DNA of 57,283 nucleotides from the NCBI GenBank assembly GCA_042218325.1, contig JBDGRE010000023.1, forward strand, positions 1 through 57,283, read 5' to 3'. The notes beneath the pieces were generated by a model that ran no database searches, was not told where the DNA came from, and saw nothing but the letters and a program-made list of their open reading frames with translations. The position numbers were made by a program, and so were the translations under genes. Position 1 is the stretch's first letter. Each line of letters begins with the position of its first letter. The stretch is from Candidatus Nanohaloarchaea archaeon. Its GTDB lineage: Archaea; Nanohalarchaeota; Nanosalinia; Nanosalinales; Nanosalinaceae. This document shows, in pieces, positions 5,918 to 57,283 of the stretch.

Positions 5918-6048
5918 TGCGGCGTCGGGGATTTGAACCCCGGTTACGACCATGGCAAGGTCGTGTCTTAGCCACTCCAAAACGCCGTATGCGTTTTGTG
6001 CGAAGCTTAAACTCCGCACAGGAGTTTTAGCCACTGGACCAACGCCGC
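5918..6048 (-). tRNA. tRNA-Gly(GCC) with a 59-nt D-loop intron (5968-6026)
   Basis: Removing the intron gives GCGGCGTTGGTCCAGTGGCTAA|GACACGACCTTGCCATGGTCGTAACCGGGGTTCAAATCCCCGACGCCGCA (72 nt). BHB has central helix GGCU/GGCU and bulges AAA and AAG. Confidence 0.92.
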
Positions 6049-8680: not shown

Positions 8681-8818
8681 GGGCCTGTAGCTCAGCTGGA
8701 CAGAGCGCGAGGTTCCTAATCCCGATTTCTCGAAGAGATAGCGGGTCGAGAAGTGGATCTTCGACGCAAGCCACGAGGAGATACCTCGAAGTCGTGAGTT
8801 CGAATCTCACCAGGCTCG
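8681..8818 (+). tRNA. tRNA-Arg(CCT) with a 64-nt canonical intron (8719-8782)
   Basis: GGGCCTG/CAGGCTC acceptor, CGAGG/CCTCG anticodon stem, GTTCGAATC T-loop; loop UUCC pairs with intron GGAG. Confidence 0.92.
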
Positions 8819-8853
8819 ATTCGATACCGCGCAGAAACTCTTGCGAGTTTCGA

Positions 8854-8878
8854 GTGGGTTCAAATCCCACCGGGTCCG
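8854..8878 (+). repeat. Second, diverged tRNA T-arm plus acceptor 3' strand
   Basis: GTGGGTTCAAATCCCACCGGGTCCG, 35 nt after the tRNA end. Confidence 0.75.
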
Positions 8879-8960
8879 TAAGTATTATCTGGCAGAGGCC
8901 GACCTAAAAAACAAGTGCTTATTAATAAGTTGTTATCAGAAAGTGAAATTCGTGGATGAG

Positions 8961-17843: not shown

Positions 17844-17895
17844 ATTCAGGAGTTTCGAGACCAGTCTTAAGTCGTTTCATCCCGCAACCCGGGAC

Positions 17896-18474
17896 ATGCA
17901 ACTGGAAAAGGCGGCGTTCGGGATGGGCTGCTTCTGGGGGCCAGAGGCGCTGTTCGGCTCTCTGGACGGTGTCATCAGGACCCGCGTGGGGTACGCCGGT
18001 GGAGAAAAAGAGGACCCGACGTACGACGACCTCGGCGGCCACACCGAGACCGTTCTGGTGGAGTACGACCCGGAGAAGATAGGCTACGAGGACCTGCTCG
18101 ACGTGTTCTGGGAGAACCACGATTTCCGCAGCTACCGTAAACCGCAGTACGCGTCGAAGATCTTCTACCTGGACCAGGAGCAGAAGGATATCGCCGAGGT
18201 CATGATACAGAACTATCCGGACGCGGAGACCGAGATACAGCCACTGGAAAACTTTACTGTGGCGGAGGACTACCACCAGAAGTACCGGCTGAGGCACTCT
18301 GGACTCATGGAGCAGTTCGAAGATAGCCGAAACTCCCCCGGAGTTTCTGGGCCTCCAGAAAATCTCCGATTTTCGAACATGAGTGACAAAGAGTTGCGTG
18401 ACTCGCCGCTCGCGGCGAAGGCGAACGCGGTGGCCGCGGGAAAGCTGGATAGAGATGAGCTCGATCCGGACTGA
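17896..18474 (+). CDS. msrA: Peptide-methionine (S)-S-oxide reductase
   Basis: GCFWG, TRVGYAGG, GHTE, AEDYHQKY; carries an apparent ~18-aa insertion. Confidence 0.93.
   Translation: MQLEKAAFGMGCFWGPEALFGSLDGVIRTRVGYAGGEKEDPTYDDLGGHTETVLVEYDPEKIGYEDLLDVFWENHDFRSYRKPQYASKIFYLDQEQKDIAEVMIQNYPDAETEIQPLENFTVAEDYHQKYRLRHSGLMEQFEDSRNSPGVSGPPENLRFSNMSDKELRDSPLAAKANAVAAGKLDRDELDPD
18327..18376 (+). repeat. Twin-hairpin mini-element, in frame in msrA
   Basis: cc GAAACTCC-CCC-GGAGTTTC tgggcctcca GAAAATC-TCC-GATTTTC ga. Confidence 0.8.
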
Positions 18475-35044: not shown

Positions 35045-37690
35045 ATGAAGGGAGATTACAGTCCGAGGCAGGTCGAGAGCAAGTGGCAGGATAGATGGGT
35101 CAAAAACAGGACTTACGCTTACACCGCTGTGGATGACAGCAGCGAGGTGTTCTCCATCGACACGCCGCCACCGACCGTATCGGGCTCCCTCCACATGGGC
35201 CACCTTTACGGACAGACACTGCAGGACTTCCAGGCCCGGTTCCAGAGGATGTACAACGGCGCGGTCTTCCAGCCGTTCGGCTACGATGACAACGGCATCG
35301 CCTCGGAAAGGTTGACTGAGGACGAGCTCGGCATCGAGCACCAGGATTTCTCGCGGAGGGAATTCCAGGAGAAGTGCCGCGAGGTCTGCGAGGAATACGA
35401 GAACCAGTTCACGGAGAACATGCAGGGCCTCGGAATCTCGCACGACTGGACGAATACTTACAAGACCATCGAGCCGCGCGTCCAGCGTATCTCCCAGCTC
35501 TCCTTCATCGACCTGTACGAGAAAGACAGGGAGTACAGGAAGAAAGGGCCAGCGATATGGTGCCCGGAGTGCGAGACCGCGATATCGCAGGTCGAGACAG
35601 AGGACGCGGAGCGACACAGTAGCTTCAACGACATCGAGTTCGAGCTGGCTGATGGTCACGGCTCGCTGGTCATATCCACGACAAGGCCCGAGCTTCTGCC
35701 GGCATGCGTCGCGATATTCGTCCACCCGGATGACGAGGCCAACGCACAACTGAAGGGCGGGAGCGCGCGTGTACCTCTATTCGGCCACGAGGTCCCGATC
35801 ATAGAGGATGAACGCGTCGACATGGAGAAGGGGACCGGAGTCGTCATGTGCTGCACTTTCGGCGACCAGACGGACATAGAGTGGTACCAGGCCCACGACC
35901 TGCCGCTGCGCGTGGCGATAGACGAGTCGGGTATCATGACTGATGTCGCCGGCAAGTACGAGGGCATGACCACGAAAGAGGCCCGGGAAGCCATAATAGA
36001 GGATCTCGAGGAGGCCGACCACCTGCTCGACAGCGAAGACATAACTCACACGGTTCAGGTCCACGAGCGGTGCGACGAGGATATCGAGTTCCTGGTAACC
36101 GAGCAGTGGTACGTCGAGCTGCTGGACCACAAGGACAAGTACCTTGAGGCCGGCGAGCAGATGGACTGGTACCCCGAGAAGATGTTCTCAAGGTACAAGC
36201 ACTGGATAGAAGGGCTTCAGTGGGACTGGTGCATCTCCCGGCAGCGCGACTCGGGGATCCCGTTCCCGGTCTGGTACTGCATGGAGTGCGGTGAGGAGGT
36301 TATCGCCGATAAGAAAGACCTCCCCGTTGACCCGATAGAGGATGAACCTCCGGTCGATGAATGCCCTGACTGCGGGGCGGAGGGCTTCGAGGCCGAGGAG
36401 GACGTATTCGACACCTGGGCCACCTCGAGCCTGACACCACTGATAAACGCAGGCTGGGACTGGGACGAGGAGAACGGTTTCACGATGGACCGGGAGGAGC
36501 TGTACCCGTTCGACCTCCGGCCGGAGGGCCACGACATCATCTCGTTCTGGCTGTTCCACACAGTCGTGAAATGCTACGAGCACACCGGAGAAGTCCCGTT
36601 CGAGGGCGTCATGAACCACGGCCACGTCCTCGACGAGAACCGGGAGAAGATGAGCAAGTCGAAGGGCAACGTCGTGACGCCCGCAGAAGTCCTCGAGGAT
36701 TTCCCTGTAGACGCGGCGAGGTACTGGGCCGCCGGTTCGAAGGTCGGCGACGACTTCCCGTTCAAGAAAGGAGACCTGGAGGCGGGCGAGAAGCTGCTGA
36801 GGAAGATGTGGAACGCCTCCAAGCTGGTCGACAGGCTCGCACCACAGGACCGTGACATTAAGCAAGAGGAGCTTGAACCCATCGACCGGTGGATGCTTGC
36901 GAGGCTCGATGAAACGGTGGAGTACGCGACCGAGAAGTTCCAGGACTACGAGTTCGCGAAGGCCCGGAACCGCATCCGGCACGTCTTCTGGGACACCTTC
37001 TGTGACGACTACCTCGAGATAACGAAGCAGCGTCTGGAAGGCGAGGACAACCGTTCGGCGGAACACACACTGAGAACCGCACACCGCAATTTCCTGAAAC
37101 TGTTCGCGCCGTTCCTCTCGCACATAACCGAGGAGATCTACCACCAGATGTACTCGTCGGGATTCTCGCCCGAGATGGCCGATGGAGAAGACTCGTCTTC
37201 GACCGATTCAAGTATACTTCACAGTGAGTGGCCGGAGACCTCCGGAGTGGAGTTCGAAGTCGCAAGAGGCAACCGGGCGATGCAGGTCATCTCTGCGCTG
37301 AGAAAGTACAAGAGCGACCACCAGATGTCGATGAACAAGAACCTCGGGAAGGTCCAGGTCTACGGCGACATAGAAGGATTCGAGCGCGAGATACAGGAGG
37401 TCATGCACGTTGAGGACCTTGAGATCCTCGAGGAGGAACCGGAGACCGAGAGACAGATAATCCGGATCAAGCTCGACTACGAGCGCGCTGGTCCCAAGTA
37501 CGGCGACAAGGTCGGCGAGATCGAGGAGGCCCTAGAAAACAACGAGTGGAATATAGACTCCGGCCACCTCGAGGTCGCGAGTGAACACCTGAAGCCCGAG
37601 ATGTTCGAGGTCGAGGACGAGCACGTCCACAAGGGAGAAGGGGAACTCATAGAGACCGAGGACGCGTTCGTCGTGGTGAAGCAAGGATGA
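35045..37690 (+). CDS. valS: Valine--tRNA ligase
   Basis: DTPPPTVSGSLHMGH, TTRPEL, WCISRQR, DTWATS, KMSKS. Confidence 0.97.
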   Translation: MKGDYSPRQVESKWQDRWVKNRTYAYTAVDDSSEVFSIDTPPPTVSGSLHMGHLYGQTLQDFQARFQRMYNGAVFQPFGYDDNGIASERLTEDELGIEHQDFSRREFQEKCREVCEEYENQFTENMQGLGISHDWTNTYKTIEPRVQRISQLSFIDLYEKDREYRKKGPAIWCPECETAISQVETEDAERHSSFNDIEFELADGHGSLVISTTRPELLPACVAIFVHPDDEANAQLKGGSARVPLFGHEVPIIEDERVDMEKGTGVVMCCTFGDQTDIEWYQAHDLPLRVAIDESGIMTDVAGKYEGMTTKEAREAIIEDLEEADHLLDSEDITHTVQVHERCDEDIEFLVTEQWYVELLDHKDKYLEAGEQMDWYPEKMFSRYKHWIEGLQWDWCISRQRDSGIPFPVWYCMECGEEVIADKKDLPVDPIEDEPPVDECPDCGAEGFEAEEDVFDTWATSSLTPLINAGWDWDEENGFTMDREELYPFDLRPEGHDIISFWLFHTVVKCYEHTGEVPFEGVMNHGHVLDENREKMSKSKGNVVTPAEVLEDFPVDAARYWAAGSKVGDDFPFKKGDLEAGEKLLRKMWNASKLVDRLAPQDRDIKQEELEPIDRWMLARLDETVEYATEKFQDYEFAKARNRIRHVFWDTFCDDYLEITKQRLEGEDNRSAEHTLRTAHRNFLKLFAPFLSHITEEIYHQMYSSGFSPEMADGEDSSSTDSSILHSEWPETSGVEFEVARGNRAMQVISALRKYKSDHQMSMNKNLGKVQVYGDIEGFEREIQEVMHVEDLEILEEEPETERQIIRIKLDYERAGPKYGDKVGEIEEALENNEWNIDSGHLEVASEHLKPEMFEVEDEHVHKGEGELIETEDAFVVVKQG
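37158..37204 (+). repeat. Twin-hairpin element in frame in valS, similar to the tRNA-Arg(CCT) intron
   Basis: ATTCTC-GCCC-GAGAT ggccgatgga GAAGAC-TC-GTCTTC gac. Confidence 0.65.
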
Positions 37691-40297: not shown

Positions 40298-40926
40298 TGG
40301 ATATCGAGAACCTTGCAGAGACCGCGGAGGACTTCACCGGCAACGTATGGCTGCTCTCCCGGAACTCTTCCGAGTTCCGTGGGTCGCAGAAGCCTCCGGC
40401 TTCGAGAGGCGCAGAGACAGTTCTTATCGACGCCGGCGAGGGCGACTGCTGGCAGGAGATAGATGAACTGGAAAGCCTGGAGAAAGTCGTCGTGACGCAC
40501 AGCCACCACGACCACGTCGACAACCTGCCGAAGATAGTGGACCGCTTCTCGCCCGGGGTGTACGCGTACGAGCCGGAGAACCTGCCCGTCGACGCTGAAG
40601 AGATAGAAGAGGGCGACACACTGGAGCTGTCGGGAACAGATTTCGAGGTAATCCAAACTCCAGGCCATAGAGACGACTCCATCTGCCTGTACTCACGGGA
40701 AGAAAAACTGCTTTTCACCGGCGACCTTATCTTCCCGGAGGGAGGGTTCGGCCGGACCGACCTCAAGGAAGGTGACCGCGACCTACTCATCGAATCCATC
40801 GAGAAGGTAGCGGAACTCGAAGTGGACGAGTTCTACCCCGGCCACGGTGAGGCCGTAACTCAAGACGCCGGGCGCTGGATAGAGAAGTCGCTGGAGCAGG
40901 CGAAGAAGCGGGAGCCGAAGTACTAG
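40297..40926 (+). CDS. MBL-fold metallo-hydrolase (glyoxalase II-like)
   Basis: THSHHDH, TPGH, FTGD, GRTD, PGHG; apparent ~17-aa insertion near the N-terminus. Confidence 0.9.
   Translation: MDIENLAETAEDFTGNVWLLSRNSSEFRGSQKPPASRGAETVLIDAGEGDCWQEIDELESLEKVVVTHSHHDHVDNLPKIVDRFSPGVYAYEPENLPVDAEEIEEGDTLELSGTDFEVIQTPGHRDDSICLYSREEKLLFTGDLIFPEGGFGRTDLKEGDRDLLIESIEKVAELEVDEFYPGHGEAVTQDAGRWIEKSLEQAKKREPKY
40359..40405 (+). repeat. Twin-hairpin mini-element, in frame in the MBL hydrolase
   Basis: cc GGAACTC-TTCC-GAGTTCC gtgggtcgca GAAGCC-TCC-GGCTTC ga. Confidence 0.8.
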
Positions 40927-55804: not shown

Positions 55805-56221
55805 CTAAAAGAATCGAAGAAACCTGCCACAGTGATTTGACCGAGAACCAGAGGGCTCAATCCATTCTCCATTCAGATGATCGTTGATACATCTATCATC
55901 TTCCTTTAGGTCGGAGTTCATCGTCTTCCCATGTCCAAATATATCAGAAACTGTGTGGAGAGTTATCGAACCAAAAAAGGATGATAAGGTAAGTAGAGAT
56001 AGCCAACCTGTGGCAACATAAAGGCCGGCAGAAATTATTAGTAATAGGCTGAACTGTATAGGCCGGTGCAAAGTCTTTCTATGTTCAAAAAACATGTCAA
56101 GGTCAGGTAGAATACCGGCTATCATACCTGTCAAAACCAAAATCAACTGTATTTCTGGAGACAGTATAGACATTAACAGCCCTAAACTCCCTCCTGCCAA
56201 AATATGGGTTGGAAGCATCAT
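55805..56221 (-). pseudogene. YdjM/LexA-binding-type membrane metal-dependent hydrolase, likely C-terminally truncated
   Basis: MMLPTH, LPDLD, HRKTLH, HTVSD; sequence looks non-coding after GEWIEP. Confidence 0.6.
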
Positions 56222-56307
56222 AATGAAAACAAATTTGCCCCATTGAAACAAATAAGTTCGGCAGTTTCCACACCCCTTAGAATTGTGGAGATGTGCAATT
56301 GCCAGTC

Positions 56308-56449
56308 CTAAAATCGAAGATTTTATTGACCTACAAAATTCGGAAAGAATTTTGGCAGGCCCCGGATTCGAAACTCGATAGAGTTTCTGTATATCCAGAA
56401 AATCCTACGGAGTTTCGATGGATTTGAACCGAAATCCCGGATTTGAACC
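56308..56449. repeat. Two tandem twin-hairpin elements plus tRNA T-arm remnants
   Basis: ct AAAATC-GAA-GATTTT attgacctac AAAATTC-GGAAA-GAATTTT gg; tc GAAACTC-GATA-GAGTTTC tgtatatcca GAAAATCC-TAC-GGAGTTTC ga; GGATTTGAACC x2. Confidence 0.75.
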
Positions 56450-56486
56450 TAGATGTAGAATTTTTCAGGAATGATGTCTCAATTAA

Positions 56487-56681
56487 TTATTGTTCGAGAC
56501 TGAATATTTCTTCGACTGAGGTATCGAAGTATTCTGCCAGTTTAAGGGCTAGTTCCAGGCTTGGGTTGTATTTACCTGTTTCTATGGCGTTGATTGTTTG
56601 TCTGGAGACATCCATTTCTGTTGCTAGTTTTTTCTGAGTTATGTCTTTCTTGGCTCTGAAAACTTTCAACTCATTCTTCAT
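56487..56681 (-). CDS. XRE family HTH transcriptional regulator
   Basis: [24 protein letters not shown]. Confidence 0.93.
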
Positions 56682-57133
56682 TAGTCCAGCCTCCAGAACT
56701 TTGAGTCGATTCCAAAGTTCTTGTAGTAAGCTCTGAAACCGAAGTAAAGCAAAGTAATGAATTCGATGAATAATCCTGGTGCTGACGTTATAATCTGTTC
56801 TCTACTGGCTGGTATTGTTTCTAGTGTAATTCCGAAGATCATGTGTGCGATGAATGAAAGCATTCCAAGGTTGAATATGGTCCAGAAGCTGGTCGCTGCA
56901 GCATGAGTATTAACCTTTTTCATTCTTTCATCGTTTACAGGATCATCCCGTAGAACCCGCTTCACATTCATCCAAGCAAGGTAACCAAACAGAGCTGAAA
57001 CAATCAGTGCAGCAACACCTATTTTCCAACGCCCTGCGTAAAACATTGCTGCGGAAGCCAGGAGTATTAATGGGAGTATCAGGGATGCCACTCCCAGCCT
57101 CATGATATTAAATGCGTCCTCCGCATCACTCAT
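56681..57133 (-). CDS. DUF2178-like membrane protein
   Basis: TMs flanking NDERMKKV; typical pairing with the XRE gene. Confidence 0.7.
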
Positions 57134-57283
57134 TCTTTATCACCCAACAGTATCTCTTTGATGTTTCTCTGAGTTCCTACATGGTTGTACCAGATTTGGG
57201 CCGCCGCGAAGACTGTTGCGCCGACCAAGGCGATAATCAAGTCGTCATAGAATGTGAGGAAGCCGGGTTCGCTTCCAACTCGG
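57130..57283 (-). CDS. C-terminal part of a membrane protein (start outside window)
   Basis: ...[44 protein letters not shown]; ATGA overlap with the next gene. Confidence 0.55.
   Translation of the reverse strand, partial: RVGSEPGFLTFYDDLIIALVGATVFAAAQIWYNHVGTQRNIKEILLGDKE

What the first reader, a model, noticed from the sequence alone, without database searches (positions are those of the whole stretch)
18315..18378. Dispersed twin-hairpin mini-element inserted in frame in msrA (type copy of the family)
Seen: a ~50-nt unit of stem-loop, 10-nt spacer, stem-loop, then GA/GG. The geometry recurs at 40359-40405 (MBL gene), 56308-56355 and 56368-56418 (intergenic), 5974-6030 (minus strand, mostly the tRNA-Gly intron), 8722-8765 (tRNA-Arg intron) and 37158-37204 (valS). 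Stem sequences change while pairing and spacer length are kept. Here it encodes SRNSPGVSGPPENLRFS and is bounded by an imperfect inverted repeat GTTCGAAGAT/ATTTTCGAAC. Established: Rickettsia palindromic elements insert in frame into proteins, and REP/MITE-type elements are mobilised in trans. Inference: an undescribed archaeal structure-defined selfish element that persists only where harmless, namely in spliced tRNA introns, protein loops and intergenic DNA.
Basis: partly seen in the sequence, partly recalled or inferred. Interest (0 to 1): 0.85.

Follow-up and report, generated by a model that had tools for sequence, protein, structure and literature searches.

The report
Palindromic mini-element docking at start codons
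The extra 54 bases in the msrA gene are a real copy of a roughly 56-base, three-hairpin DNA element scattered through salt-lake nano-archaea, most often slotted exactly at the start codons of ribosomal-protein genes, where it brings its own ribosome-binding site and start codon.

Summary
Window 18325-18378 is a 54-nt in-frame insertion in the C-terminal tail of MsrA. It is missing from all 5 orthologues whose tail I could read. It belongs to a real family with the layout CGAAA-hairpin-TTTCTG-N5-CAGAAA-hairpin-TTTCG. The window's genome has 10 strong copies and about 27 loci in all, against 0 descriptor hits in shuffled genomes. The family was found in 46 of 70 genomes of the phylum. It does not recover 8722-8765 or 37158-37204.

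About 60% of copies in relatives sit exactly at a gene start, mostly of ribosomal-protein genes. A typical 56-nt insert follows the old ATG, carries a Shine-Dalgarno motif in its 3' hairpin and ends in a new ATG/GTG. This leaves a 15-20 codon upstream ORF whose stop overlaps the new start. Congeneric genomes show clean filled and empty sites. Orthologous copies keep 79% identity where fourfold sites keep 40%, with compensatory stem changes.

No HUH, DDE or reverse-transcriptase mobiliser was found, and there is no consistent target duplication. Best reading: a MITE/RPE-like insertion element, partly co-opted as a translational-coupling leader. It appears undescribed in the literature I searched.

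The parts
18325..18378 (+). 54-nt element copy inserted in frame in msrA, between GAT (Asp) and ATG (Met). It encodes SRNSPGVSGPPENLRFSN.
   Evidence: Orthologue alignments and empty-site DNA. CM scores of 51-55 bits with R1 and 56-64 bits with R2. A strain about 93% identical in two other metagenome runs also carries it.
17887..18474 (+). msrA coding sequence (195 aa from the likely ATG). The Pfam PMSR domain covers residues 8-138, so the insert lies in the C-terminal tail.
18329..18347 (+). 5' hairpin: GAAACTCC, loop CCC, GGAGTTTC.
   Evidence: Sequence. Covarying pairs.
18344..18361 (+). Central inverted repeat TTTCTGG-N4-CCAGAAA.
18358..18374 (+). 3' hairpin: GAAAATC, loop TCC, GATTTTC, followed by GAAC and the native ATG.
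56365..56422 (+). Full intergenic copy, lying in a block shared with contig C5 and with two relatives.
   Evidence: 54-62 bits.
56304..56360 (+). Degenerate neighbouring copy.
   Evidence: 33.3 bits with R1 and 37.0 bits with R2.
40360..40407 (+). 48-nt in-frame insertion (RNSSEFRGSQKPPASR) in an MBL-fold hydrolase gene. It is a GC-shifted copy with compensated stems.
   Evidence: Absent from 10 of 10 orthologues, including the congener. 24.7 bits with R2, E 2e-4; 14.6 bits with R1.
5968..6026 (-). 59-nt D-loop intron of tRNA-Gly(GCC), flanked by the 9-nt direct repeat AGTGGCTAA. It is element-like.
   Evidence: Sequence. The bulge-helix-bulge motif was read by hand. CM hit at 5972-6033 with 27.6 and 28.7 bits.
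8797..8857 (+). Weak hit: the T arm of tRNA-Arg plus a 3' half-element (GCAGAAACTC..GAGTTTCGAGTG).
   Evidence: 20-24 bits; sequence.
37158..37204 (+). valS loop insertion. The indel is real but family membership is not shown.
   Evidence: Searches show the indel. There is no CM hit at E <= 10 with R1 or E <= 5 with R2. Fold z-score +0.25.

Best explanation
The msrA insert is one copy of a non-autonomous, palindromic mini insertion element of about 48-60 nt (56 nt is the modal size).

Anatomy. Four nearly invariant GAAA/TTTC blocks close two variable hairpins. Between them lies a central TTTCTG-N5-CAGAAA inverted repeat. The element can therefore fold either as tandem hairpins or as a small cloverleaf/cruciform.

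Shown. Copies are gained and lost as exact units of about 56 nt.

Inferred. Copies survive only where they do not break a gene.
- The commonest such place is immediately after a gene's ATG. The 3' hairpin carries an SD-like GGAGGTG and the element ends in ATG/GTG, so the gene restarts. The old SD and ATG now drive a 15-20 codon upstream ORF whose stop overlaps the new start, which preserves translational coupling in tight operons.
- Variants whose length is a multiple of three survive inside protein loops: msrA (54 nt) and the MBL gene (48 nt).
- Others lie in a tRNA intron, beside tRNA genes, or in spacers.

Long-term conservation at orthologous gene starts suggests that many start-codon copies have been co-opted as coupling leaders. 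The mobilising enzyme is unknown.
For: Insertion in msrA and other genes.
- 5 of 5 readable MsrA tails lack exactly these 18 residues.
- The MBL insert is absent from 10 of 10 orthologues.

The family is real.
- About 27 loci in the window's genome.
- 30 of 41 genomes at E <= 1e-3 with R1 and 46 of 70 genomes of the phylum at E <= 1e-5 with R2.

Mobility.
- Of 19 loci in the congener G001, 5 are cleanly filled there and empty in the window's genome, with differences of about 56 nt. These are at the starts of RpoB, L11, aIF2-gamma and L24, plus one more locus.
- At least one locus, L2/S19, is shared.

Start-codon docking.
- 64 of 106 loci in relatives have an ORF of at least 60 aa starting within 8 nt of the element's 3' end. 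At random positions the rate is 11.8%.
- Under a stricter test the figures are 55 of 106 against 5.0%.
- Of 68 such loci, 58 have an ATG at the 5' end.
- The ATG-to-new-start distance is 56 nt in 27 loci and 53 nt in 11. It is 2 mod 3 in 45 of 58.
- The upstream ORF is 15-20 codons long. Its stop lies within 4 nt of the new start in 52 of 58.
- An SD-like 4-mer precedes the old ATG in 48 of 58 and the new start in 58 of 58.

Structure rather than peptide is kept.
- All three reading frames are used by the upstream ORFs.
- On 106 loci there are 1684 Watson-Crick, 26 GU, 19 AC and 35 other pairs.

Conservation.
- Element identity is 0.786 for the same gene in different genomes (27 pairs), 0.714 for different genes in different genomes and 0.716 for different genes in the same genome.
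- Fourfold sites in the same 27 pairs are identical at 403 of 994, or 0.405.
Against: - No mobiliser was found. Y1/HUH transposase occurred in 1 of 41 genomes, and that genome has almost no copies.
- In five copy-rich genomes, DDE_Tnp_1 was over cut-off in 0 of 5, DDE_3 in 0 of 5 and RVT_1 in 0 of 5. TnpB was over cut-off in only 2 of 5.
- There is no consistent target-site duplication. The longest flanking direct repeat averages 4.9 nt against 4.5 nt in mismatched controls. Repeats of 8 nt or more occur in 5.2% against 1.6%.
- Copies within a genome are no more alike than copies between genomes, so there is no sign of recent bursts.
- Strong conservation at orthologous loci fits a purely functional element as well as a mobile one.
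- GU is about as frequent as AC, so I cannot tell whether RNA or DNA hairpins are selected.
- There are no RNA data for this organism.
Confidence: 0.6

Rival explanations
1. It is primarily a functional cis-acting leader: a shared translational operator or coupling device for the ribosomal-protein and translation regulon. A trans-acting factor or the ribosome would read it as RNA. The copies in coding sequence and in spacers would be stray by-products.
For: - Copies are enriched at the starts of ribosomal-protein, aIF2-gamma, RpoB, Spt4, SUI1 and ATPase genes.
- The new SD is partly buried in the 3' hairpin, and the upstream ORF's stop overlaps the new start.
- Orthologous copies are held at 0.786 identity while fourfold sites sit at 0.405, with compensatory changes at a single locus, for example upstream of L13.
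Against: - It does not explain how the same 56 nt reach new genes.
- About 40% of copies are not at gene starts.
- 24 of 70 genomes of the phylum show no hit at E <= 1e-5, including genomes rated 96-99% complete. The element is therefore dispensable.
- GU pairs are no commoner than AC pairs.
- The related forms in Woesearchaeota and Methanosarcinales are mostly not at gene starts.
Confidence: 0.25
2. It is a bulge-helix-bulge-type intron, cut out of mRNAs and tRNAs by the tRNA-splicing endonuclease. On this reading the coding-sequence and start-codon copies are never translated.
For: - The tRNA-Gly D-loop intron is element-like and, read by hand, forms a canonical bulge-helix-bulge motif (28.7 bits).
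- Deleting a copy in one relative restores a tRNA-Phe prediction (L058).
- 26 of 43 ARAGORN predictions in this genome carry introns.
Against: - By eye I found no bulge-helix-bulge motif at the msrA junctions or at the start-codon junctions. The only 4-bp palindrome pairing in msrA (UCGA:UCGA) would remove 56 nt and create a stop codon.
- The coding-sequence copies are exact multiples of three with no stop codon, as expected if they are translated.
- The start-codon copies carry their own SD and start codon, which would be pointless if they were spliced out.
- This check was made by hand, not with a dedicated tool.
Confidence: 0.04
3. It is a folded-DNA recombination site, like an integron attC site or a Xer/tyrosine-recombinase core, that is used by a resident tyrosine recombinase.
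For: - The centre is a 9-10 bp inverted repeat around a 5-6 bp spacer.
- Pairing is kept almost entirely as Watson-Crick pairs, with no strand bias.
- Phage_integrase-family genes are present in 5 of 5 copy-rich genomes.
Against: - Tyrosine recombinases are present in all 14 control genomes too, so their presence says nothing.
- There are no cassette arrays and no matching core at the empty sites.
- The idea does not explain the SD, start-codon and upstream-ORF geometry.
Confidence: 0.06
4. The hairpins are chance or compositional, and there is no family.
For: Single-site fold z-scores are weak, from -2.5 to +0.25 for 6 of the 7 sites.
Against: all show a specific, recurrent, covarying sequence family.
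Confidence: 0.01

Closest known systems
Rickettsia palindromic elements (RPEs)
   Same: Both are short palindromic repeats with no transposase of their own. Both insert in frame into unrelated protein genes and also into non-coding RNA genes and spacers. For RPEs I rely on passages of the MITE review PMC10969869 and on recall.
   Different: RPEs are about 100-150 bp, bacterial, and encode a conserved peptide. This element is about 56 nt and archaeal. Its peptide is not conserved, since all three frames are used. Its main niche is the start codon, where it supplies an SD and a start codon.
MITEs such as Correia/NEMIS, ERIC/RU and RUP
   Same: Both are small, have terminal inverted repeats (CGAAA...TTTCG, and ACTCGAAA...TTTCGAGT in spacer copies), are dispersed, show presence/absence polymorphism, often sit at gene 5' ends, and are co-transcribed. 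ERIC/RU elements also occur inside genes (PMC2759123, search listing and abstract only).
   Different: No cognate transposase and no consistent target duplication were found here. The element is far smaller than typical MITEs. It inserts at a precise position at the start codon. In the passages I saw, the archaeal MITEs listed by the review come from Sulfolobus, Halobacterium, Haloquadratum and Desulfurococcus, not from DPANN archaea.
REP/BIME/REPIN elements with RAYT (Y1 HUH) transposases, and IS200/IS605-derived PATEs
   Same: These are hairpin-defined repeats of 20-60 nt. Their stems covary, they often lie between cistrons, and they insert without target duplication next to a short target motif.
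   Different: The defining Y1 transposase was found in only 1 of 41 genomes. REPs lie outside genes and are not docked at start codons.
Archaeal bulge-helix-bulge introns and tRNA-intron transposition (Thermoproteales; recalled)
   Same: One copy is a bona fide-looking tRNA intron. The element's terminal repeat forms the inner helix, and a flanking 9-nt direct repeat forms the central helix and the bulges.
   Different: Most copies have no bulge-helix-bulge motif and lie in mRNA leaders, coding sequences or spacers.
Upstream-ORF or leader-peptide translational coupling (reviewed in PMC12548453; abstract seen)
   Same: A short ORF ends on or next to the start of the next gene, and that gene's SD lies in a hairpin which translation of the short ORF would open.
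   Different: Here the same portable 56-nt cassette creates this arrangement at dozens of unrelated genes.

Membership tests
MITE | Short non-coding unit with terminal inverted repeats | tested here: met
   CGAAA...TTTCG is nearly invariant. Spacer copies extend it to ACTCGAAA...TTTCGAGT.
MITE | Many dispersed copies with filled and empty sites between related genomes | tested here: met
   About 27 loci in the window's genome. 5 clean filled/empty pairs against the congener. msrA and MBL empty sites.
MITE | Target-site duplication of fixed length | tested here: inconclusive
   Only 2-4 nt (TG, TGA or AT) can be read at most junctions. Longest repeats average 4.9 nt against 4.5 nt in the control. 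A few are long, at 9-15 nt.
MITE | Cognate autonomous element or transposase with the same ends | tested here: not met
   PF01797 was found in 1 of 41 genomes. PF01609 was over cut-off in 0 of 5, PF13358 in 0 of 5 and PF07282 in 2 of 5. Only these families were searched.
REP/REPIN-RAYT and IS200/IS605 PATE | Resident Y1 HUH transposase (RAYT/TnpA) | tested here: not met
   40 of 41 genomes had no match. The search did find the family in 6 of 14 control genomes.
REP/REPIN-RAYT and IS200/IS605 PATE | Hairpins whose stems covary | tested here: met
Rickettsia palindromic element-like in-frame inserts | In-frame insertion in otherwise conserved proteins, absent from orthologues | tested here: met
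   msrA: 54 nt, absent from 5 of 5 orthologues. MBL gene: 48 nt, absent from 10 of 10.
Rickettsia palindromic element-like in-frame inserts | Sequence homology to RPE families | not tested
   No RPE sequences were compared. The organisms and sizes differ.
Archaeal bulge-helix-bulge intron | Two 3-nt bulges separated by a 4-bp helix at the junctions | tested here: not met
   Read by hand. The motif is absent at the msrA and start-codon junctions and present only for the tRNA-Gly intron. No dedicated tool was run.
Archaeal bulge-helix-bulge intron | Removal from the mature RNA | not testable with these tools
   No RNA run holds this DNA.
Integron attC | Site at the 3' end of promoterless cassettes in an array next to intI | tested here: not met
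   Copies sit at gene starts in ribosomal-protein operons, in coding sequences and near tRNAs.
Rfam families (including C/D-box sRNAs and ribosomal-protein leaders) | Match to a curated covariance model | tested here: not met
   The window at gathering threshold gave only 2 tRNAs. Three element-bearing loci searched at E <= 1 gave one unrelated weak sR30 hit away from the element.

The most novel reading that the evidence does not exclude
A portable, self-contained translation-initiation cassette made of an upstream-ORF body, hairpins, an SD and a start codon. It docks at start codons without any recognisable transposase. Nanohaloarchaeota would have recruited it as a regulon-wide translational operator or coupling leader for ribosomal-protein and translation genes. 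The same module would also seed new bulge-helix-bulge introns in tRNA genes and new loops in proteins. Its relatives in Woesearchaeota, other DPANN archaea and methanogens would point to an archaea-wide class of hairpin module.
Probability: 0.25. Interest if true: 0.9.

Novelty: new variant of a known kind. Interest (0 to 1): 0.8.

Why it matters
- It would be the first MITE/RPE-like element reported from DPANN archaea, and an unusually small one.
- It shows a way for selfish DNA to be harmless inside the tightest operons of a 1-Mb genome: carry your own ribosome-binding site and start codon, and sit on the start codon.
- It affects genome annotation. Dozens of ribosomal-protein genes start at a GTG/ATG 56 nt downstream of an apparent ATG, and small upstream ORFs and in-frame protein inserts come from this repeat.
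- The tRNA-Gly case gives a concrete model for how new bulge-helix-bulge introns arise: a terminal inverted repeat plus flanking direct repeats make the splicing motif.
- The conservation at orthologous gene starts makes a testable case for a regulon-wide translational control element in organisms whose gene regulation is almost unknown.

Tried and rejected
HUH/RAYT mobiliser. PF01797 was found in 1 of 41 genomes, and that genome is nearly free of copies. Rejected as a resident mobiliser.

Other mobilisers, searched in five copy-rich genomes (G000, G001, G006, G007, G023).
- DDE_Tnp_1: 0 of 5 over cut-off.
- DDE_3: 0 of 5.
- RVT_1: 0 of 5.
- TnpB zinc ribbon: 2 of 5 over cut-off.
- Phage_integrase: 5 of 5, but also present in all 14 control genomes, so uninformative.
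- Only these six Pfam families were searched in all. I did not do a genome-wide phyletic profile.

Bulge-helix-bulge splicing of the msrA and start-codon copies. Checked by hand only and not supported.

Small-protein gene. The upstream ORFs use all three frames relative to the hairpins, and the peptides swap residues where stems covary. Rejected as a conserved peptide.

Long target-site duplication. A few striking cases of 9-15 nt exist, but overall the repeats are not above the control.

Element as an intron in the T loop of a tRNA, for the C16:56365, C5, L042, L068 and L128 copies. Deleting the element in 650 variants per locus gave no tRNA. Only L058 (tRNA-Phe) and the tRNA-Gly control did.

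Rfam. No family matched.

Viral contigs. The exact pattern gave 0 matches.

Expression. No RNA holder was listed. The DNA contigs laid show that a strain about 93% identical also carries the msrA insert. One low-depth contig replaces 18310-18399 with 30 other letters, and depth at the element core is 10-15 times higher. No RNA conclusion is possible.

RNA against DNA level of selection. GU 26 against AC 19 is undecided.

Caveats.
- My ORF extraction failed for L004 and L008 (wrong frame) and for L233. Those rows were not used.
- R2 was built from hits of R1, so it is independent of the window's sequences but not of the R1 model.
- The loci were chosen from the best-scoring listed hits, so the context counts describe high-scoring copies.
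- Supplementary files of papers were not consulted. The supplements of PMC7247131 (ribosomal-protein leader motifs) could bear on whether a related archaeal leader was catalogued.
- Papers: I saw search listings and abstracts, and passages of PMC7247131 and PMC10969869. RPE, Correia, REP/RAYT, PATE and Thermoproteales intron-transposition facts not found in those passages are recalled.
Full report
**What is at the site.** Window 17887-18474 (+) encodes a methionine sulfoxide reductase A. Pfam PMSR matches residues 8-138 with E 1.5e-39. The flagged stretch lies after the catalytic domain and reads as follows:
- hairpin GAAACTCC-CCC-GGAGTTTC at 18329-18347;
- a 10-nt spacer;
- hairpin GAAAATC-TCC-GATTTTC at 18358-18374;
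- then GAAC and an ATG.

The spacer ends and the hairpin feet also form TTTCTGG-N4-CCAGAAA. The unit can therefore fold as tandem hairpins or as a small cloverleaf. Its folding energy alone is unremarkable (z -2.4).

**It is an insertion.** A search of 41 related genomes with the protein found matches in 28, counting the window's own genome. In the five orthologues whose C-terminal tail I could read (L002, L003, L005, L006, L007), the tail runs ...QKYRLR-x6-(F/Y)-x-(E/D) straight into M(S/T/D)-x-E(E/D)F, without the 18 residues SRNSPGVSGPPENLRFSN. At the DNA level, the two closest empty sites read ...GAGTTCGAAGAG|ATGACG... and ...CAGTTTGAAGAT|ATGAGC.... The window reads ...CAGTTCGAAGAT[54 nt]ATGAGT.... 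The insert is therefore 18325-18378. A strain about 93% identical, present in two other metagenome runs of the same study, carries the insert too.

**It belongs to a real family.**
- The core pattern occurs at a second window locus, 56381-56401. That is 4 strand matches against 0.48 expected.
- A regex over the whole assembly, then a descriptor (GAAA-hairpin-TTTC-hairpin-GAAA-hairpin-TTTC), then nhmmer and a covariance model found 10 strong copies of 49-72 bits.
- The descriptor gave 10 strand hits at 6 loci. It gave none in 10 dinucleotide shuffles or in the reversed genome.
- On the 10 copies, 92.5% of cells pair against 82.0% in shuffles, and five pairs change on both sides.
- On 106 distinct loci from relatives, the 17 model pairs hold 1684 Watson-Crick, 26 GU, 19 AC and 35 other combinations. 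Several positions split among AT, CG and TA.
- Model R2, built only from relatives' copies, finds about 27 loci in the window's genome.
It does not support 8722-8765 or 37158-37204.

**Other in-frame copies.** The MBL-fold hydrolase gene carries a 48-nt, 16-residue insert at 40360-40407. This insert is absent from 10 of 10 orthologues, including the congener. Its stems are GC-shifted but compensated (GGAACTC/GAGTTCC and GAAGCC/GGCTTC), and R2 scores it at 24.7 bits (E 2e-4). The valS site is a real 12-16 residue indel against three orthologues, but it is not recognisably a family member.

**The main niche is the start codon.** In the window's genome, copies lie between L24 and S4e, S13 and S4, L2 and S19, L3 and L4, and just upstream of rpoK. 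In each case:
- the upstream flank ends in ATG, often overlapping the previous gene's stop;
- 56 nt follow;
- the element ends in GAGTG(A) or GAATG(A), which is in frame with the downstream gene.

I fetched the best copy per genome, all copies of the congener, and 56 further high-scoring loci from relatives. Together these gave 106 distinct loci.
- 64 of 106 have an ORF of at least 60 aa starting within 8 nt of the element's 3' end. At random positions of the same loci the rate is 11.8%.
- With the added requirement of an in-frame stop within 25 codons upstream, the figures are 55 of 106 against 5.0%.
- Adding the window's genome gives 68 such loci, of which 58 have an ATG at the 5' end.
- The ATG-to-new-start distance is 56 nt in 27 loci, 53 nt in 11 and 59 nt in 5. 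It is 2 mod 3 in 45 of 58.
- The resulting upstream ORF has 15-20 codons, and its stop lies within 4 nt of the new start in 52 of 58.
- An SD-like 4-mer precedes the old ATG in 48 of 58 and the new start in 58 of 58.
- The new start is ATG in 37, GTG in 18 and TTG in 3.

The upstream ORFs use all three frames relative to the hairpins, so the peptide is not what is conserved. Judged from their N-termini by eye, the downstream genes are mostly ribosomal proteins, plus aIF2-gamma, RpoB, Spt4, SUI1, DnaJ and ATPase subunits.

**Gain, loss and conservation.** I compared the congener G001 with the window's genome. Flanks are about 72-81% identical, and 19 G001 loci were examined.
- Five G001 loci are filled where the window's genome is empty, with differences of about 56 nt. 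These lie at the starts of RpoB, L11, aIF2-gamma and L24, plus one more locus.
- The L2/S19 copy is shared.

Many copies are old.
- 27 pairs of copies upstream of the same gene in different genomes are 0.786 identical.
- Copies at different genes are 0.714 identical between genomes and 0.716 within a genome.
- In those same 27 pairs, fourfold-degenerate third positions of the downstream gene are identical at 403 of 994, or 0.405.
- Compensatory changes occur at a single locus, for example ACTCA/TGAGT against ATTCA/TGAAT upstream of L13.

The element is therefore under selection, or is constantly renewed, at resident sites. It is not merely tolerated.

**Distribution.**
- R1 hits 30 of 41 genomes at E <= 1e-3.
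- R2 hits 46 of the 70 genomes held for the phylum at E <= 1e-5. By family the counts are 38 of 49, 2 of 10, 5 of 8, 0 of 1 and 0 of 1. Some genomes rated 96-99% complete have no hit.
- An exact 22-base pattern scan of one genome per prokaryotic species found 65 stretches. About 0.3 would be expected by chance, by my own estimate.
- By record title the 65 stretches are: 13 Nanohaloarchaea/Nanohalobium, 5 'uncultured archaeon', 28 Woesearchaeota, 1 Pacearchaeota, 2 Nanoarchaeota, 7 Methanosarcinales, 3 other methanogens, 3 unassigned archaea and 3 bacterial.
- The pattern gave no match in viral contigs.
- The non-halophilic forms are two longer tandem hairpins and are mostly not at gene starts. 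In one Woesearchaeota assembly they sit inside a MITE-like repeat of about 200 bp, with at least 12 copies.
- Whether these forms share ancestry with the nanohaloarchaeal element or are convergent is open.

**Mechanism.**
- Shown: unit insertions of about 48-60 nt; docking at start codons with a built-in SD and start codon; in-frame survival in proteins; covarying hairpins.
- Inferred: survival by harmlessness, helped by preserved translational coupling; later co-option.
- Unknown: the mobiliser. A Y1 HUH transposase was found in 1 of 41 genomes. DDE_Tnp_1, DDE_3 and reverse transcriptase were absent from five copy-rich genomes. TnpB was over cut-off in 2 of 5. Tyrosine recombinases were present in 5 of 5 but also in every control genome.
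- Flanking direct repeats are not longer than in mismatched controls, apart from a few cases of 9-15 nt.
- GU and AC counts do not show whether RNA or DNA hairpins are selected.
- There are no RNA data.

**Link to tRNA.** Read, tRNA-Gly(GCC) spans 6048-5918 (-) with a 59-nt D-loop intron at 6026-5968. ARAGORN and Rfam report a shorter gene built on a duplicated 5' part. The intron is element-like, at 28.7 bits. It is flanked by the 9-nt direct repeat AGTGGCTAA. By hand it forms a canonical bulge-helix-bulge motif: GGCU:GGCU from the two repeat copies, bulges AA|A and AA|G, and an inner helix ACUCC:GGAGU from the element's ends. This is a plausible route from insertion to a new intron. By the same hand test, neither the msrA junctions nor the start-codon junctions form such a motif.

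**Comparison and novelty.** The element behaves like a very small MITE/REP/RPE-type palindromic repeat. It fails the membership tests that need a cognate transposase or a fixed target duplication. Rfam has no matching family. Six full-text searches, and passages of a review of prokaryotic MITEs and of a survey of ribosomal-protein leaders, gave no description of it. I rate it a new variant of a known kind. There is a substantial chance that the start-codon copies are a functional, regulon-wide leader.

Noticed in passing
window 5918-6048 (-): tRNA-Gly(GCC) has a 59-nt D-loop intron (6026-5968) flanked by the 9-nt direct repeat AGTGGCTAA, and by hand it shows a canonical bulge-helix-bulge motif. 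ARAGORN and Rfam instead report 5919-5987 or 5918-5988, using a duplicated, imperfect copy of the 5' end.
   Followed up: partly
window 8819-8880 (+): Directly after tRNA-Arg(CCT) (8681-8818, which has an intron) lie a 3' half-element and an orphan tRNA 3' piece (T arm GTGGG/CCCAC plus acceptor strand CGGGTCC). It may be an att-site remnant or an alternative 3' half.
   Followed up: no
In the whole assembly, 26 of 43 ARAGORN predictions carry introns, some of them doubtful.
   Followed up: no
window 56230-56440; G000 C5:62600-62800; L042 (G007); L068 (G001): A conserved block, GGCAGTTnCC...TGCAA...TTGGCAGGnCCCGGAT[element]ATGGATtTGAACC, is shared between two contigs and two other genera. On the other strand it resembles a tRNA T loop plus acceptor plus CCA. 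No tRNA is predicted after deleting the element.
   Followed up: partly
window 56000-57283: The end of the window is low in GC and holds an XRE-type helix-turn-helix ORF (56487-56801, minus strand). It may be part of an integrated element.
   Followed up: no
window 37150-37205 (+), valS: The window's ValRS has 12-16 extra residues (about SGFSPEMADGEDSSST) in a variable loop, compared with G001, G005 and G024. The DNA forms two small hairpins, but neither covariance model hits it.
   Followed up: partly
G000 C2:52660-52790: An element copy sits between two copies of the thermosome gene's C-terminal GGMM-stop coding tail. This looks like a flanking duplication of about 11 nt, or a displaced original stop.
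   Followed up: no
G000 C32:17173-17286 and C32:31540-31600: A longer subfamily with 4-5 hairpins, about 110 nt. One copy lies between SufS and the SufU-like gene, flanked by a direct repeat of about 15 nt that includes the SD and ATG.
   Followed up: no
L160-L215 (one Woesearchaeota assembly): At least 12 near-identical copies of a MITE-like repeat of about 200 bp contain the twin hairpin. Some copies hold nested insertions.
   Followed up: partly
G000 contigs C7:6392, C31:77334, C1:201694, C1:107169, C18:22411: Single hairpins or half-elements of the same GAAA...TTTC type abut the 3' ends of several tRNA genes.
   Followed up: no
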